A DNA stretch of 4,054 nucleotides from a virus (Duplodnaviria > Heunggongvirae > Uroviricota > Caudoviricetes), in the IMG/VR virus record IMGVR_UViG_2695420685_000017. One strand, written 5' to 3'. The notes beneath the pieces were generated by a model. The model saw only the letters and a program-made list of their open reading frames with translations. It was not told the origin of the DNA and made no database searches. Made by a program: the position numbers and the translations under genes. Positions 1 through 4,054 of this stretch are shown one piece after another. Every line of letters begins with the position of its first letter. Positions within the stretch are counted from its first letter, which is position 1.

Positions 1-199
1 CCCCGTCAGTAGCTGAACAGGAGGGACAGCTGATAGAAACAGAAGCCACTGGAGCACCTCAAAAACACCATCATACACTAAATCAGTAAGTTGGCAGCAT
101 CACCAAGGCATTAAAACTAAAAAATGATGAACTTGCAGTCGAGATTGAAACATTGAAAGTACTTGTACAATCACTATTCGATAATAAATAAATACAAAA

Positions 200-219
200 G
201 GGATAAATGGATTTATCCC
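200..219. promoter_or_regulatory. Perfect 9-bp inverted repeat GGGATAAAT-GG-ATTTATCCC, 29 bp upstream of the major tail protein start; possible operator or stem-loop
   Basis: Read directly: 200-208 GGGATAAAT is the exact reverse complement of 211-219 ATTTATCCC, with a 2-nt spacer. It lies in the untranslated leader upstream of the Shine-Dalgarno AAGGA (237-241). Function is not established. Confidence 0.35.
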
Positions 220-248
220 ATTAATTCAATTCTTATAAGGATATAAAT

Positions 249-710
249 ATGGCTATGGATATTTTTGCAGGTGCTAACCTACAGGTCGAAGTAGGTACAA
301 GTGCTGGCAGTACTATTGCAACGGATTTTGAAGTAATCCCGGAAGTGAATACCTTCACGACTTCAGGCTTTGAGAGTGCCGTAATTACTGTAAAAACATT
401 TAATAATGCGTATGACCGAAAATTATTAGGTACTAAATCAATCCCTGATATTAGTCTTGAAGTTAACTACTTACCGGATAATGTAGTACACCAAAAATTA
501 GAACAGCTTGCCGATGATCAGAAACGTTGTCAAATCAAACTCAGCTATTTTGAAGATGCGACTAAAACAACAGGATTCTATGTTATCTATACCTGTTTCG
601 TGTCGAGTACGACTATCGGTGGTGACAAGGATGAAGTCGTAACTAAGACCTTCACGCTTGCTGTAGATGGTGCTGCTATTGATTCAGGACTGATTACTGA
701 AACTCCATAA
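249..710 (+). CDS. Phage major tail (tube) protein, 153 aa
   Basis: ATG at 249 is preceded by AAGGA (237-241) with 7-nt spacing, and the ORF ends TAA at 708-710. It sits immediately upstream of the chaperone pair and tape measure gene, the conserved siphovirus order. Size (about 150 aa) and the predicted beta-rich, Thr/Val/Ser-rich composition fit a tail tube subunit. Family assignment is by synteny, not homology search. Confidence 0.75.
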   Translation: MAMDIFAGANLQVEVGTSAGSTIATDFEVIPEVNTFTTSGFESAVITVKTFNNAYDRKLLGTKSIPDISLEVNYLPDNVVHQKLEQLADDQKRCQIKLSYFEDATKTTGFYVIYTCFVSSTTIGGDKDEVVTKTFTLAVDGAAIDSGLITETP

Positions 711-720
711 TTTAATAAAT

Positions 721-749
721 AAAGGGAAGGTTATTAACTTTCCTTTTTT
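721..749 (+). terminator. Putative weak intrinsic terminator or attenuator hairpin between the major tail protein and chaperone genes
   Basis: 721-729 AAAGGGAAG pairs with 738-746 CTTTCCTTT (9 bp, one G-U pair, 8-nt loop), followed by TTT (747-749). The stem is AU-rich, so termination would be partial at best. Confidence 0.3.
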
Positions 750-767
750 CGTATATGGAGATAACAG

Positions 768-1067
768 ATGAATTTAATGGAACTAAAAAAGAAACTACAA
801 CCAGAGCTAAAACCATTTGAGATCGAAGGCTTCACGCTCTACATCCACCGTCCAAATGGTCGCGATTTTGCAAACTGTACTGATGTAGCAAATACTCTCA
901 TTCTTTGTGTTAAAGATGAAAATGGTGATCCTATTTTCTCTGATGAAGATATTGATGGGCGTATTAATGTCAACAGCATTGATTATGTTATGCAGGGCAA
1001 AATCTATCAGGCAATTATTCAACTTGTCAGTGACAGTAATCCAGTGGATGAAGTCGAAAAAAAGTAA
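768..1067 (+). CDS. Tail assembly chaperone, lambda gpG-like (99 aa), the upstream partner of a G/GT frameshift pair
   Basis: ATG at 768 has GGAG (757-760) at 7-nt spacing. It is a small acidic protein lying between the major tail protein and the tape measure gene, and it ends at a slippery heptamer followed by TAA (1065-1067). Confidence 0.8.
   Translation: MNLMELKKKLQPELKPFEIEGFTLYIHRPNGRDFANCTDVANTLILCVKDENGDPIFSDEDIDGRINVNSIDYVMQGKIYQAIIQLVSDSNPVDEVEKK
1058..1064 (+). promoter_or_regulatory. Programmed -1 ribosomal frameshift slippery heptamer A_AAA_AAG
   Basis: In the 768 frame the codons are GAA AAA AAG TAA, so the heptamer A AAA AAG (1058-1064) is in the correct X_XXY_YYZ register and is followed directly by the zero-frame stop. 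The -1 frame is open from 1052 through 1456. The downstream ORF has no Shine-Dalgarno of its own before its ATG at 1100. Confidence 0.65.
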
Positions 1068-1099
1068 GATGTGATAGCCATCTGCGGTACTTCTGTAAA

Positions 1100-1456
1100 A
1101 TGGTCAATAAACGTGGTTTATCACCAGATGAGTACTTTAATTTAGATCCTGAAGTACTCGATATGCTTATGGTTTACGATGCCTATATAGAACCGACAGG
1201 TACGCAAATTGAGATGTTGAAACATGCTTATCAGTGCTATTACACCACGATAAGTAATGGGAATCTCACGCCAGAGGCACGGCGTAGTATCAAAGTTGCT
1301 GATTTTGATTTTCTGGATGTTTTTAATAGCGATCTCACTACACAAGAAAAAGCAGAAGTGAAAGAACAGAAGAAAAAAGAAGCTCAGGCCAATGATATTA
1401 AATCAATCGGTGACGCTATCAGGAATCAGGTATTAGGAAAGAAGAATGGCAAATAA
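1100..1456 (+). CDS. Tail assembly chaperone -1-frame extension (T segment of gpGT-like protein); probably expressed mainly as a 768..1456 frameshift fusion of about 229 aa rather than from the ATG at 1100
   Basis: This frame is -1 relative to 768..1067 and is open from 1052, with its upstream stop TGA at 1049-1051. No SD-like motif precedes ATG 1100 (upstream sequence is GGTACTTCTGTAAA). Its stop TAA (1454-1456) overlaps the tape measure start, and the position matches the lambda G/GT arrangement. Confidence 0.7.
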   Translation: MVNKRGLSPDEYFNLDPEVLDMLMVYDAYIEPTGTQIEMLKHAYQCYYTTISNGNLTPEARRSIKVADFDFLDVFNSDLTTQEKAEVKEQKKKEAQANDIKSIGDAIRNQVLGKKNGK

Positions 1457-3665
1457 TAATAGAATTCGTTTTGATATTGACGGGGATACGTCAGGTTTAC
1501 AGCGTGCTTTGCGACAAGGCACCTCATCACTTGAAGAATTCGGTTCAAATGCTGGCGGTGTGATTGAAGATCTCACTGGCAGTTTTAGTGGGCTTGCTGG
1601 CGGTTTCGGTACGGCAATGACAGGTTTAGCGGGGGCTGCTGCAATTGGTATTGGTGGCCTTACTGCACTGGTCAATTCAAGCCGCGAATATGTGCGTGAA
1701 ATGAATGAAATCAGTCGTAGTGCTGGATTGTCCGTCATGCAGCTTCAGCAGCTATTGGCGGCGTTTAGCGGTCTTGGGCTTGAAATGGATAAGTTTGGGG
1801 ATTTCAACAAGGATACGCTCGATAAACTCGGGGATGCGTTCCGTGCTGGCGGCGGTGTTAGTGACGATCTTAAAGAGTACGGGCTGAACCTACAGCAATA
1901 TAACAAGTACCTTAAACAAGCAGATGGCGGTATGCAGGCCGTGATCCACACGTTTTATGCCATGCGGGATGCAGGTAAGTCACAGGCCGAAATCGTCAAC
2001 GTCATGGAAACACTGGCGAGTGATTCAAGCCACATGATCAGTACTCTACAGCAGTTCAATACTGAAGCCGATGCAATGACGTACATACAGGGCCAGAACG
2101 CCGCAGTGAGTAACGAGGCAGCGGCAAACTATGCAGAGTTCGATAAGAATCTGGATAAGCTGACAACCCGTATCAAAGGTACTATCGCTGATGGTCTGAA
2201 TCCACTCGTGGGGGCAATGAATGCAATACTGGATGCCGCCAATCAGAAGCCCCATGAAGCAGGGCTATTTGAAGATCTGAACGAGAAGATTAAAACGTCG
2301 AAGGGGTCATTACAGGATTTTTTAGACATATGGGAAAAGTTACGCACCTCCGGGGCTTTAAACTACCAGGGTGCAGCCTTGCAAACTGGCAGTATGGATA
2401 ATGGCAAGCAGAGTGTGTACGCCAGTGCTCAAGCCAATCTTGAAGGACTCGTGAATAACTTTCGCAATGACATAGCTACTGTTACGGCTCCGCAAGGTGG
2501 CTGGAAAGACGAAGCTAAAGAACGTGAGGATGCTCAGAAGAAAGCCGATCAGCTACGGAAACAGGCAGAACAAGTCCAAAAGCAGGCTGATACAAAAAGG
2601 CTACAGGCACAGCGTAATCTTGAAACGGCACTTGCTCAGGTCGGGGAAGAGGGCTTCAAAGTACGCCTACAGCAGTTCGACAGGCAACAGAAAGCCCTTC
2701 TTAAGACGATTACGGACAGTGCTCAGGTACTTGGAATATCACCAAAGCAACTTAAAGAATATGTCGATGCCGCAAATGCTTCTGGTACTAAACAACGTAA
2801 TGATTTAATCAATTCAATGGTTGGTTATCAAGATCCCAATCAGGGTCTGAAAGATACAAATAGCTTAATTTCTTCTGGTGTACTGAACAGTACTCAAAAA
2901 TCATTCCTAACAGATCAGCAAAATCAGCGTATCAATGGTGGTAATCCCTTAAGTTATGATAATACCGATCAATTACTGAAAGATAATCAGGATGCCATGA
3001 ATGCAGAACTTCAGCAGAATGATTTATTACTGAAGGGGCATGAAGATTATGAAAAGAGAAAGGCAGAGATTACGGCAAAGTATAATGCTCAGGCTATCGA
3101 TATCAGTAACCAGAATGCACAGCAACAACTAACAATTTTCAGCGATACAGCCCAATCCTTAAGTGATGGCATGGTCGCAGCGTTTGGTGAATCTTCAGGG
3201 GCAGCACAGGCGGCATTCGCATTGAGTAAGGGCATTACTATTGCTCAGACAGTACTCTCAATACAATCAGCATTAGCACAGGCTCTTGCTACGCCGTGGC
3301 CCGCAAGCCTCGCAAACTACGCTCAGGTACTATCGTTAGGTATGAGCATTATCAGTACTGCGAAGGGGGCTGCAAGTGGGCAGTTCCACGGCGGTGTAGA
3401 TGAATTGCCCGCTGGTATGGATAACAAAAGTTTTATACTGAAAGCCGGTGAGCGTGTAGTACAGCCAGAAGCTAACAAGAAGCTGACTAAGTTCCTCGAT
3501 ACTCAGGAGAAAGGCGGTGGTACTGCTGGAGATATCACCGTCAACGCCCCCTTGATCATTCAGGGAGACGTTGCAGGTGATGATAAGAAATTCAATGAAA
3601 TGTTGAAGAAGCACGCTAATAGCGTTACTCAGGCCGTAAGAAGCAGTCAGAGACGGAATACTTAA
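1446..3665 (+). CDS. Phage tail tape measure protein, 739 aa
   Basis: ATG at 1446 has AGGA (1435-1438) at 7-nt spacing and overlaps the upstream ORF by 11 nt. The protein is long and low in complexity: a Gly/Ala-rich hydrophobic N-terminal segment (GLAGGFGTAMTGLAGAAAIGIGGLTAL), a long Gln/Lys/Glu/Ala-rich helical central region, and a hydrophobic C-terminal segment (ITIAQTVLSIQSALAQALATPWPASLANYAQVLSLGMSIISTA). Position directly after the chaperone pair is diagnostic. Confidence 0.9.
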   Translation: MANNNRIRFDIDGDTSGLQRALRQGTSSLEEFGSNAGGVIEDLTGSFSGLAGGFGTAMTGLAGAAAIGIGGLTALVNSSREYVREMNEISRSAGLSVMQLQQLLAAFSGLGLEMDKFGDFNKDTLDKLGDAFRAGGGVSDDLKEYGLNLQQYNKYLKQADGGMQAVIHTFYAMRDAGKSQAEIVNVMETLASDSSHMISTLQQFNTEADAMTYIQGQNAAVSNEAAANYAEFDKNLDKLTTRIKGTIADGLNPLVGAMNAILDAANQKPHEAGLFEDLNEKIKTSKGSLQDFLDIWEKLRTSGALNYQGAALQTGSMDNGKQSVYASAQANLEGLVNNFRNDIATVTAPQGGWKDEAKEREDAQKKADQLRKQAEQVQKQADTKRLQAQRNLETALAQVGEEGFKVRLQQFDRQQKALLKTITDSAQVLGISPKQLKEYVDAANASGTKQRNDLINSMVGYQDPNQGLKDTNSLISSGVLNSTQKSFLTDQQNQRINGGNPLSYDNTDQLLKDNQDAMNAELQQNDLLLKGHEDYEKRKAEITAKYNAQAIDISNQNAQQQLTIFSDTAQSLSDGMVAAFGESSGAAQAAFALSKGITIAQTVLSIQSALAQALATPWPASLANYAQVLSLGMSIISTAKGAASGQFHGGVDELPAGMDNKSFILKAGERVVQPEANKKLTKFLDTQEKGGGTAGDITVNAPLIIQGDVAGDDKKFNEMLKKHANSVTQAVRSSQRRNT

Positions 3666-3686
3666 GAAAGCCCTACATGGGCTTTC
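3666..3686. terminator. Hairpin GAAAGCCC-TACAT-GGGCTTTC between convergent genes; putative bidirectional intrinsic terminator
   Basis: Read directly: an 8-bp stem with 4 G-C pairs and a 5-nt loop, starting 1 nt after the tape measure stop (3663-3665). It overlaps the last codons and stop of the minus-strand ORF and is followed on the + strand by the T-rich TCTTTG. Confidence 0.5.
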
Positions 3687-3927
3687 TCTTTGCAAGATAT
3701 TCGCATTTCTTTTTATAGATCAATTTGCGGGTATTGATCGACTTAATCTTTCTAAGTAACTGACTAAAACTTAACACTGTACTGGCAGAAATGAGAAACG
3801 TGTAAATGAATAGATTTGCTAATTTACCACCGTCAAAAGTGGAAATGTCTTTAAATATAAAAACGCCAACAAATATAGGTAGCAAAAAGCCACCTACTAA
3901 TATTACAACCAGACTAATATTAAACAT
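3673..3927 (-). CDS. Small hypothetical membrane protein, 84 aa, two predicted transmembrane segments and a strongly basic C-terminal tail; convergent to the tail operon (moron candidate)
   Basis: ATG is the complement of 3925-3927 and the stop TAG the complement of 3673-3675. Two hydrophobic stretches (ISLVVILVGGFLLPIFVGVFIF and LANLFIYTFLISASTVLSF) are followed by a Lys/Arg-rich tail. An 84-codon stop-free frame is unlikely by chance in such AT-rich DNA. Caveats: the SD is weak (only AAGTGA upstream), and AT-rich DNA yields Phe/Ile/Leu/Lys-rich translations by default. Confidence 0.5.
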   Translation of the reverse strand: MFNISLVVILVGGFLLPIFVGVFIFKDISTFDGGKLANLFIYTFLISASTVLSFSQLLRKIKSINTRKLIYKKKCEYLAKRKPM

Positions 3928-3973
3928 TTCACTTTTAGGGAAGGTGCGAATAAGCGGGGAAATTCTTCTCGGC

Positions 3974-3984
3974 TGACTCAGTCA
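3974..3984. promoter_or_regulatory. 11-bp palindrome TGACTCAGTCA in the upstream region of the minus-strand small gene; possible regulator binding site
   Basis: Read directly: TGACT-C-AGTCA is a 5-bp inverted repeat around a single central base, lying about 47-57 bp upstream of the minus-strand ATG (3927). No function is demonstrated. Confidence 0.2.
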
Positions 3985-4054
3985 TTTCATTTCTTCATGT
4001 TTGAGCCGATTTTTTCTCCCGTAAATGCCTTGAATCAGCCTATTTAGACCGTTT

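What the first reader, a model, noticed from the sequence alone, without database searches (positions are those of the whole stretch)
1052..1102. G/GT-type programmed -1 frameshift between the two chaperone ORFs (A_AAA_AAG directly on the stop codon)
The 99-aa ORF ends GAA AAA AAG TAA, and the heptamer A_AAA_AAG (1058-1064) is the same slippery sequence used in E. coli dnaX. The -1 frame is open from 1052 to 1456 and its first ATG (1100) has no ribosome-binding site. The simplest reading is therefore two products: the 99-aa protein, and a fusion of about 229 aa (768..1064 joined to 1064..1456) made at low frequency, as in the conserved tail-assembly frameshift of dsDNA phages. The immediately adjacent stop codon could add ribosome pausing. 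A possible 5-bp downstream stem (1067-1071 AGATG with 1079-1083 CATCT) is too weak and too close to count as a stimulator. Automated annotation would usually call 1100..1456 as an independent gene.
Basis: partly seen in the sequence, partly recalled or inferred. Interest (0 to 1): 0.5.

Follow-up and report, generated by a model that had tools for sequence, protein, structure and literature searches.

The report
Phage tail-chaperone G/GT frameshift site
This is the usual programmed -1 ribosomal slip that lets tailed phages make a short tail-assembly chaperone and a rarer long fusion from two overlapping genes; it sits in a prophage family where nobody has annotated it, and the mechanism is ordinary.

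Summary
The 99-aa ORF (768-1067) ends GAA AAA AAG TAA, the heptamer A_AAA_AAG (1058-1064) is in frame, and the -1 frame is open from 1052 to 1456. The predicted fusion is 229 aa (26.2 kDa). The one error is the junction peptide, which reads ...VEKK-VRCDSH..., not VKCDSH (AGA = Arg).

In 48 unique relatives (G identity 43-99%), GAAAAAAAR-TAA is invariant. Seventeen of 18 other invariant G residues vary in codon. A second in-frame A_AAA_AAG at 785 is not conserved.

The 9 codons before ATG 1100 show pN/pS 0.36 in the -1 frame, against about 1 and frequent stops in the other two frames, so they are translated although no start codon precedes them. In 24/48 the two frames overlap over exactly the heptamer. 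The T ATG has no Shine-Dalgarno sequence family-wide.

No conserved RNA structure or upstream SD stimulator exists. The only conserved context is the abutting TAA.

Transcriptional slippage on the A7/A8 run would give the same fusion and is a minor rival. Verdict: a new, unannotated member of a well-known kind, of modest interest.

The parts
249..710 (+). Major tail (tube) protein gene, 153 aa. It is the upstream neighbour that defines the canonical G/GT position.
   Evidence: PF08813 Phage_tail_3 E 1.4e-7, above the cutoff. phrog_158 major tail protein E 2.9e-18.
768..1067 (+). G: tail assembly chaperone ORF, 99 aa, the product of standard translation. It has its own Shine-Dalgarno sequence (GGAG).
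1049..1051 (+). TGA in the -1 frame. It closes that frame 5' of the site, so the two frames overlap only over 1052-1064.
   Evidence: In 24/48 relatives the equivalent stop directly abuts the heptamer, giving an overlap of exactly 7 nt.
1058..1064 (+). Slippery heptamer A_AAA_AAG, where the P- and A-site tRNA-Lys re-pair in the -1 frame.
   Evidence: In frame. Invariant as A_AAA_AAR in 48/48 unique relatives. E97 and K98 use a single codon in 44/44, while 17 of 18 other invariant residues use two or more codons. The in-frame copy at 785 is not conserved.
1065..1067 (+). Zero-frame TAA stop directly abutting the heptamer. It is the only conserved context element.
   Evidence: TAA in 48/48. The fourth base is G in 37, T in 8 and A in 3.
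1064..1099 (+). Linker of 12 codons (VRCDSHLRYFCK) in the -1 frame. It can be translated only after the frame change.
   Evidence: No start codon lies upstream in this frame. Over the 9 codons before the ATG, pN/pS is 0.36 in this frame against 1.19 and 0.94 in the other two frames. This frame has no stops, while each of the other two has stops in 32/48. The AF2 helix 5-17 runs through Met13.
1064..1456 (+). T segment, 130 codons plus stop, in the -1 frame. It forms the C-terminal part of the 229-aa GT fusion. Automated annotation calls 1100-1456 as a separate gene.
   Evidence: It matches no known family. The model is all-helical with pLDDT 72.5. The SD duplex at ATG 1100 is -3.1 kcal/mol, and the family mean is 0.0.
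1446..3665 (+). Tape measure protein gene, 739 aa. It is the downstream neighbour and the presumed client of G/GT.
   Evidence: phrog_13674 tail length tape measure protein, E 2.7e-88 over residues 4-736.

Best explanation
The site is a programmed -1 ribosomal frameshift of the lambda G/GT type.

Most ribosomes translate 768-1064 and terminate at TAA 1065, giving the 99-aa chaperone G. A minority slip back one base while the two tRNA-Lys occupy AAA-AAG (1059-1064), re-pair on AAA-AAA (1058-1063) and continue with GTA at 1064. This gives the 229-aa fusion GT.

By analogy with lambda, the G parts coat the tape measure protein and the T part recruits the tube protein. The shift frequency would then set the G:GT ratio.

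Shown here: the signal, its frame, its nucleotide-level conservation, translation of the linker in the -1 frame, the chaperone fold of G, and the lack of an SD sequence at the T ATG.

Inferred: that the frame change is ribosomal, its frequency, and the roles of G and T. The signal appears to need no RNA structure. The abutting TAA may add a pause.
For: - Gene order is tube, G, T, TMP.
- The heptamer is in frame and the stop abuts it.
- 51 of 53 related loci keep GAAAAAAAR-TAA, all 48 unique sequences among them, across 43-99% G identity.
- In 24/48 the frames overlap over exactly the heptamer.
- Synonymous-site control: E97 is GAA and K98 is AAA in 44/44, while 17 of 18 other invariant residues vary in codon. 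For example, E51 is GAA 33 / GAG 11 and K49 is AAA 39 / AAG 5.
- The in-frame A_AAA_AAG at 785-791 decays freely in relatives.
- Linker pN/pS is 0.36 in the -1 frame, similar to 0.30 in the T body. It is about 1 in the other two frames, each of which has stops in 32/48 sequences.
- SD duplex energy at the T ATG averages 0.0 kcal/mol, against -5.4 for G and -5.2 for TMP.
- There is no plus-strand promoter-like site ahead of T.
- G has the TAC fold.
- Literature: lambda G/GT is made at 30:1, and some tailed-phage shifts need no stimulator (PMC5009743). HK97-like TAC frameshifts were measured at 6-7% (PMC3711429). A_AAA_AAG is among the most shift-prone heptamers in E. coli because of tRNA-Lys(UUU) (PMC4066793).
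Against: - No protein data exist for this family.
- No stimulatory RNA structure is conserved (RNAalifold finds 0 pairs) and there is no upstream SD-like element. The efficiency may therefore be low.
- TAAG and TAAT are, to my knowledge, efficient terminators, so a pausing role for the stop is uncertain.
- The Met at 1100 is invariant. One clade (L013, L016, L018) has an SD-like motif plus an earlier ATG, so some independent T synthesis cannot be excluded.
- The 48 sequences are related by descent, so the counts are not independent events.
- T matches no known T-domain family.
Confidence: 0.8

Rival explanations
1. Transcriptional slippage. RNA polymerase adds one extra A on the A7 run (1057-1063; A8 in some relatives). 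Ribosomes then read the edited mRNA normally as GAA AAA AAA GTA..., which gives exactly the same GT fusion.
For: - The site is a homopolymer: A7 followed by G in 36 of 48 unique sequences, and A8 followed by T in 12 of 48.
- The predicted product is identical to that of a ribosomal shift.
- Polymerase slippage on GAAAAAA gives about 2% edited transcripts in potyviruses (PMC5009743), and only a few percent of GT is needed.
- Homopolymer-length variants appear in assemblies.
Against: - Programmed realignment in bacteria is described for A runs of n > 7 (PMC3711429). The window and 36/48 relatives have n = 7, and no relative has 9 or more.
- The run is always in X_XXY_YYZ phase and always abutted by the stop. 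Both features matter to a ribosome and neither matters to a polymerase, although shared descent could also explain them.
- AAG in the A site is the best E. coli -1 context (PMC4066793).
Confidence: 0.09
2. Two independent proteins with no fusion. T (118 aa) starts at ATG 1100, by weak de novo initiation or by termination-reinitiation after TAA 1065. The heptamer merely encodes a conserved Glu-Lys-Lys C-terminus.
For: - Met 1100 is invariant and lies at a nearly fixed distance from the stop: 35 nt in 43 and 38 nt in 5 of 48.
- Gene callers annotate it this way.
- One clade has an SD-like GAGGTGAT followed by an ATG 9 nt later.
Against: - The codons upstream of the ATG are under purifying selection in the T frame and never contain a stop.
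- There is no SD at the ATG family-wide.
- The heptamer codons are frozen at synonymous positions, unlike other conserved Glu and Lys codons.
- A -1-frame stop abuts the heptamer in half of the family.
- Met13 sits inside a conserved block and a predicted helix.
Confidence: 0.07
3. A chance or decaying arrangement. The A run marks a frameshift mutation or sequencing error in a defective, IS-riddled prophage, and G-T was once a single gene.
For: - The window's prophage is interrupted by IS1 and IS5.
- Some relatives carry lesions: L005 has a short T, L014 has a stop in G, and L004/L052 have one A fewer.
Against: - The same out-of-frame arrangement is present in 51 of 53 loci from many genera and metagenomes.
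- Four independent assemblies are 100% identical to the window at the site.
- Both ORFs are under purifying selection.
Confidence: 0.02

Closest known systems
Bacteriophage lambda gpG / gpGT tail assembly chaperones (Levin, Hendrix & Casjens 1993; Xu, Hendrix & Duda 2004, 2013, 2014, as cited in PMC5009743)
   Same: - Position between the major tail gene and the tape measure gene.
- A short G ORF and a -1-frame T ORF without its own start signal.
- A slip site near the end of G.
- No required RNA stimulator.
- An expected low-frequency fusion.
   Different: - The heptamer is A_AAA_AAG, whereas lambda uses G_GGA_AAG (from my own knowledge).
- The zero-frame stop abuts the heptamer (distance 0). 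The average distance is 26 nt in SEA-PHAGES chaperone frameshifts (PMC10885494).
- There is no detectable sequence similarity to lambda G or T. T matches no family.
HK97 tail assembly chaperone (PDB 2ob9) and its HK97-like prophage cluster, with frameshifting measured at 6-7% (PMC3711429)
   Different: Identity is only 18%. Sequence profiles do not link the two directly; a search of PDB sequences with the G profile found nothing.
E. coli dnaX frameshift signal
   Same: The heptamer A_AAA_AAG is identical, and the same shift-prone tRNA-Lys is involved (PMC3711429, PMC4066793).
   Different: - dnaX has an upstream SD-like element and a downstream hairpin. Both were tested here and are absent.
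- In dnaX the shift gives a shorter product at about 50%. Here it gives a longer fusion, presumably at a few percent.
IS3/IS1-family transposase frameshifts (e.g. IS911, A_AAA_AAG)
   Same: They share the heptamer class, which makes up 72% of IS heptamers (PMC4066793), and they also make a trans-frame fusion.
   Different: IS signals usually carry hairpin or pseudoknot stimulators. The proteins and their biology are unrelated.
Phage P2 gpE / gpE+E' (own knowledge: Christie et al. 2002)
   Same: It is a -1 frameshift chaperone pair placed between the tube gene and the tape measure gene.
   Different: It belongs to a myovirus module with a sheath gene and a different slippery sequence. No homology was detected here.

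Membership tests
Tail assembly chaperone G/GT programmed -1 frameshift (lambda-type) | The gene pair lies between the major tail (tube) gene and the tape measure gene. | tested here: met
   Tube at 249-710 (PF08813, phrog_158). TMP at 1446-3665 (phrog_13674, E 2.7e-88)..
Tail assembly chaperone G/GT programmed -1 frameshift (lambda-type) | The second ORF is in the -1 frame, overlaps the end of the first, and lacks its own initiation signal. | tested here: met
   The overlap is 1052-1064. The SD duplex at the T ATG is -3.1 kcal/mol in the window and averages 0.0 in the family, against -5.4 for G. There is no promoter-like site.
Tail assembly chaperone G/GT programmed -1 frameshift (lambda-type) | An in-frame slippery heptamer lies in the overlap and is conserved among relatives. 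| tested here: met
   A_AAA_AAR is invariant in 48/48 unique sequences. Synonymous positions are frozen, and the control heptamer at 785 is not conserved.
Tail assembly chaperone G/GT programmed -1 frameshift (lambda-type) | The downstream-frame sequence is translated from the slip site, not from an internal start. | tested here: met
   Linker pN/pS is 0.36 in the -1 frame, against 0.94-1.19 in the other frames. The -1 frame has no stops, against stops in 32/48 sequences in each other frame. This evidence is comparative, not direct.
Tail assembly chaperone G/GT programmed -1 frameshift (lambda-type) | G has the tail-assembly-chaperone fold or homology. | tested here: met
Tail assembly chaperone G/GT programmed -1 frameshift (lambda-type) | Both G and GT proteins are made, in a large G excess, and both are needed for tail assembly. 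The T domain binds the tube protein. | not testable with these tools
   This needs protein detection and genetics. T has no recognisable family or fold match.
Pfam PF16459 Phage_TAC_13 | The whole-protein score reaches the curated gathering threshold (28.8 bits). | tested here: not met
   The window G scores 20.5 bits, E 6.4e-4. 39/44 relatives hit at E < 0.01, best 2.2e-5. One database homologue carries a precomputed PF16459 hit. G is a distant relative, not a curated member.
dnaX-type tripartite frameshift signal | An SD-like element lies about 10 nt upstream of the heptamer. | tested here: not met
   The anti-SD duplex 5-20 nt upstream is -3.1 kcal/mol in the window. The family mean is -2.45, against -1.33 for random windows in G.
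dnaX-type tripartite frameshift signal | A stable hairpin lies downstream of the heptamer. | tested here: not met
   RNAalifold predicts 0 pairs on 45 sequences. The window fold has z = -0.32. There is no Rfam frameshift element.
Programmed transcriptional realignment | A homopolymer run long enough for RNA polymerase slippage (A runs of n > 7 according to PMC3711429). | tested here: not met
   The window has A7 (1057-1063). 36/48 relatives have A7, 12/48 have A8, and none is longer. Low-level slippage is not excluded.

The most novel reading that the evidence does not exclude
The invariant arrangement of a heptamer directly abutted by TAA, with no RNA structure and no upstream SD, may be a distinct 'shifty-stop' form of the chaperone frameshift. 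After normal translocation the P-site tRNA-Lys on AAG would wait opposite the stop codon and slip to AAA. Termination kinetics (release-factor availability in the infected cell) would then set the G:GT ratio, not an mRNA structure. A further possibility is that polymerase slippage on the A run contributes in parallel.
Probability: 0.2. Interest if true: 0.4.

Novelty: new member of a known kind. Interest (0 to 1): 0.28.

Why it matters
Practically, this corrects an annotation. In this enterobacterial prophage family, found in Escherichia/Shigella, Enterobacter, Klebsiella, Scandinavium, Pluralibacter, Buttiauxella, Rahnella and Phytobacter, G and T are both labelled 'hypothetical protein'. T is called as a stand-alone gene from an internal Met, or even from a CTG/TTG codon. 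No deposited phage genome carries a detectable homologue. Recognising the G/GT pair identifies the tail module and gives the correct 229-aa product.

Scientifically, it is one more example of the conserved tail-assembly frameshift. It is a clean, minimal one: 7 nt plus a stop, with no structure, and in half of the family the frame overlap is exactly the heptamer. That makes it a convenient natural substrate for asking how much frameshifting A_AAA_AAG next to a stop codon gives on its own. It does not change the current understanding of the mechanism.

Tried and rejected
- Megablast of the core (106-3932) against phages, plasmids and complete E. coli genomes found nothing except the IS ends.
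- tblastn of the GT fusion against 50,697 phage records found no match, so no annotated phage could serve as a reference.
- The first homologue search, using the whole fusion as query, returned only three T hits. Separate searches with G and with T were needed.
- A profile of G against PDB sequences gave only spurious hits at E about 0.4. The fold search was needed to see the HK97 chaperone.
- T was searched against Pfam and PHROGs, singly and as 44 members, and its model against BFVD. Nothing meaningful came back. The T model is only moderately confident (pTM 0.38).
- A downstream stimulatory structure was sought with RNAalifold, a single-sequence fold and Rfam. None was found.
- An upstream SD-like stimulator is absent.
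- I considered the SD-like GAGGTGAT just 3' of the stop as part of the signal. I rejected it because it is present in only 20/48 sequences and is weak in the window.
- I considered that L004/L052 might be a different architecture. It is the same sequence with one A fewer in the run.
- I considered the window to be an isolated prophage remnant. I rejected this as unproven, because the window is a whole short-read contig that breaks at IS copies.

Full report
**What is in the window.** The 4054-base window holds a plus-strand tail-gene block:
- 249-710: a 153-aa protein that matches tail tube families (PF08813 above its cutoff; phrog_158, E 2.9e-18).
- 768-1067: a 99-aa ORF, here called G.
- 1052-1456: an open -1 frame, here called T.
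- 1446-3665: a 739-aa tape measure protein (phrog_13674, E 2.7e-88 over nearly its full length).

The two ends of the window are the ends of IS1 (1-105) and IS5 (3933-4054).

**Check of the observation.**
- The codons are 1056 GAA, 1059 AAA, 1062 AAG and 1065 TAA.
- The heptamer AAAAAAG (1058-1064) is in X_XXY_YYZ phase.
- The -1 frame carries TGA at 1049-1051 and is then open to TAA at 1454-1456.
- ATG 1100 is its first possible start codon.
- The fusion is 229 aa, 26.2 kDa, against 11.3 kDa for G.
The codon at 1067-1069 is AGA = Arg, so the junction is VEKK-VRCDSH....
- The bare occurrence of AAAAAAG is not unusual (4 found, 1.7 expected).
- In-frame heptamers of this class occur at 4 of 1101 codon positions in the four ORFs. 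One falling in a 13-nt overlap has roughly a 1% chance. Taken alone the single sequence is suggestive, not decisive.

**Comparative test.** Scans of genome and viral contig collections with G returned 53 loci at 43-99% protein identity. They come from Scandinavium, Pluralibacter, Buttiauxella, Phytobacter and many metagenome-derived prophage contigs.
- In 51 loci (all 48 unique sequences when the window is included), G ends GAA AAA AAR TAA. The -1 frame then runs on for about 380-400 nt in nearly all of them (it ends early in L005).
- Positions -9 to +2 around the stop are invariant, while the neighbouring third-codon positions vary freely.
- The two exceptions, L004 and L052, are one and the same Phytobacter massiliensis sequence with seven As where its nearest relatives have eight. 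This is a one-base homopolymer difference. It is either an assembly error or a lesion, and I cannot tell which.

**Nucleotide-level selection at the heptamer.** Three controls show that the conservation exceeds what the protein sequence requires.
- Among the residues of G that are invariant and have degenerate codons, 17 of 18 use two or more codons (for example E51 GAA 33 / GAG 11; K49 AAA 39 / AAG 5). E97 is GAA and K98 is AAA in 44 of 44. K99 alternates only between AAG and AAA, and both keep the site slippery.
- The window has a second in-frame A_AAA_AAG at 785-791 (Lys-Lys-Lys). In relatives that keep these lysines the codons drift (AAG AAA AAA, ATG AAG AAA and others) and the heptamer is lost.
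- In 24 of 48 sequences a -1-frame stop codon directly abuts the heptamer. There the two frames overlap over exactly those seven bases, so nowhere else could join them.

**The linker is translated in the -1 frame.**
- The peptide from the slip site to the conserved Met, (V/I)(R/I/K)xxxxL(R/K/Q)Y(F/Y)(C/L)K, is conserved while its codons change (Leu TTA/TTG/CTG/CTA, Arg CGC/CGT/CGG/CGA, Tyr TAC/TAT).
- Over the nine codons before the ATG, pairwise pN/pS is 0.36 in the T frame, close to the 0.30 of the T body. It is 1.19 and 0.94 in the other two frames.
- The T frame never contains a stop there, whereas each other frame does in 32 of 48 sequences.
- No start codon precedes this stretch, so it can only be reached from G by a change of frame.
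- The T ATG has no Shine-Dalgarno sequence. The anti-SD duplex is -3.1 kcal/mol in the window and averages 0.0 in the family, against -5.4 for G and -5.2 for the tape measure gene.
- No plus-strand promoter-like site lies ahead of T.
- In the structure model of T, a helix (residues 5-17) runs through Met13. This is a weak further hint that the Met is internal.

**What the proteins are.**
- G alone gives weak hits: PF16459 Phage_TAC_13 at 20.5 bits (cutoff 28.8) and phrog_344 at E 1.3e-5.
- Across the family, 44 of 44 hit phrog_344 (tail assembly chaperone, best E 6e-10) and 39 of 44 hit PF16459.
- An AlphaFold model from 42 homologues is confident (pLDDT 87.7). Its C-terminal residues 94-99, where the slip site lies, are disordered.
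- Foldseek against viral models returns annotated tail assembly chaperones from unrelated phages at probability 0.96-1.0.
- T matches no Pfam or PHROG family and no fold. From my own knowledge, T segments are poorly conserved in general.

**Stimulators.**
- RNAalifold on 45 sequences from the heptamer to +90 predicts no base pair.
- The window's own fold is no better than shuffles (z = -0.32).
- Rfam has no match at the site.
- There is no SD-like element upstream (family mean -2.45 kcal/mol, against -1.33 for random windows in G).
- The only conserved context is the TAA that abuts the heptamer, in 48 of 48 sequences. The fourth base is G in 37, T in 8 and A in 3.
- Published work supports a signal without a stimulator. 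[quoted passage not shown] HK97-like chaperone frameshifts were measured at 6-7% (PMC3711429). A_AAA_AAG is among the most shift-prone heptamers in E. coli because of tRNA-Lys(UUU) (PMC4066793).

**Mechanism and rivals.**
- Best explanation (0.8): a -1 ribosomal frameshift at A_AAA_AAG gives G (99 aa) and a minor GT fusion (229 aa). By analogy with lambda, G would bind the tape measure protein and T would recruit the tube protein. That functional part is inferred.
- Main rival for the step itself (about 0.09): RNA polymerase slippage that adds one A, which yields the identical protein. Against it, the run is A7 in the window and in 36 of 48 relatives and never exceeds A8, while programmed realignment is described for n > 7 (PMC3711429). 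The fixed codon phase and the abutting stop matter to ribosomes only. It cannot be excluded without RNA data.
- Independent initiation or reinitiation at ATG 1100 as the only route to T (about 0.07) conflicts with the selection on the linker and the missing SD.
- In one clade (L013, L016, L018) an SD-like GAGGTGAT is followed 9 nt later by an earlier ATG, and gene callers start T there. Some free T in some relatives is therefore possible.
- A decaying or erroneous gene (about 0.02) is excluded by the breadth of the conservation and by four independent assemblies that are identical to the window at the site.

**Context of this copy.**
- The window is 100% identical to positions 21-4074 of a 4080-bp draft contig (GCA_966507045.1). 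Its IS ends are therefore real junctions at which a short-read contig breaks.
- IS1 cuts the 3' end of a gene that in relatives encodes a 911-aa protein. That protein has an N-terminal tube domain, tail-fibre repeats and an S74 intramolecular chaperone domain.
- IS5 cuts a minus-strand gene (DUF6216, 209 aa in L054).
- In L054 the same prophage has IS1 at window position 718 instead. It continues after the tape measure gene into a pb9-like distal tail protein and a tail tip protein.
- This copy is thus probably crippled as a phage, yet its G/GT signal is intact. Relatives of its proteins are named as E. coli, Shigella sonnei, Enterobacter, Klebsiella, Rahnella and Phytobacter proteins, all 'hypothetical'.

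**Comparison and verdict.**
- The site works like lambda G/GT and meets every defining feature that can be tested by computation.
- It differs in the heptamer (the dnaX/IS type) and in having the stop at distance 0. The average distance is 26 nt in SEA-PHAGES chaperone frameshifts (PMC10885494).
- It does not reach Pfam's threshold for PF16459.
- It is not a dnaX-type tripartite signal, because both flanking stimulators were tested and are absent.
- No deposited phage has a detectable homologue, and no database entry names these proteins.
- It is therefore a new, unannotated member of a well-known kind. The interest is modest: it corrects an annotation and offers a clean minimal frameshift cassette, not a new principle.

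**Limits.**
- The 48 sequences are related by descent, so the counts overstate the number of independent events.
- The pN/pS values are simple pairwise proportions without a tree.
- No protein or RNA data exist.

Noticed in passing
window 1-105 and 3933-4054; L055, L054: The window ends are IS1 and IS5 ends. The window is 100% identical to positions 21-4074 of a 4080-bp draft contig (GCA_966507045.1), so it is a whole short-read contig that breaks at IS copies. In another assembly (L054) the same prophage is 100% identical over 718-3938, but IS1 joins at position 718 and there is no IS5.
   Followed up: yes
window 106-190; L005 689-3424: The ORF cut by IS1 is the C-terminal end of a 911-aa protein in relatives. 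That protein combines an N-terminal tail-tube domain (phrog_158, residues 1-151), tail-fibre regions and a Peptidase_S74 intramolecular chaperone domain. It lies directly upstream of the ordinary 153-aa tube gene. This tube-fibre fusion paralogue is unusual.
   Followed up: partly
window 785-791: A second in-frame A_AAA_AAG lies in codons 6-8 of G. A -1 shift there would stop at 818-820 and abort G. It is not conserved in relatives and served as a control.
   Followed up: yes
window 721-746: A terminator-like hairpin followed by a T run lies between the tube gene and G. It could lower expression of G/GT and TMP relative to the tube protein. IS1 joins at 718 in L054, right beside it.
   Followed up: no
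window 1068-1075; relatives at +3 to +10 after the G stop: A sequence complementary to the 16S 3' end (GAGGTGAT or GGGGTGAT, duplex down to -10.6 kcal/mol) lies 3 nt after the stop in 20 of 48 relatives. The window has the weaker GATGTGAT (-3.5). It overlaps the codons Arg-Gly-Asp. In clade L013/L016/L018 an ATG follows 9 nt later, and gene callers start T there. Its meaning is unknown.
   Followed up: partly
window 3673-3927 (- strand); L054 3060-3689: The 84-aa minus-strand ORF after the tape measure gene is the part left by IS5 of a 209-aa DUF6216 gene. That gene is inserted in the opposite orientation between the tape measure gene and the distal tail protein gene, like a moron. The closest relatives L005/L007 carry a different minus-strand gene at this place, because similarity ends at 3669.
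   Followed up: partly
L004/L052 about 4290; P0003; L005 T ORF; L014 G ORF: The A run varies in length in some assemblies. Phytobacter massiliensis JC163 has 7 As where its nearest relatives have 8, which puts T in the +1 frame. P0003 is an in-frame G-T fusion from a run two bases shorter. L005 has a T frame that ends after 99 codons, and L014 has an internal stop in G. These are either homopolymer sequencing errors or decay of individual prophages.
   Followed up: partly
P0046, P0072, P0074 (homologues of T): Some gene callers start T at the Leu codon six codons upstream of the conserved Met (a CTG in the window and its close relatives), giving 'MRYFCKMVNK...'. This shows that annotation pipelines see the open frame upstream of the ATG but have no proper start for it.
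   Followed up: no
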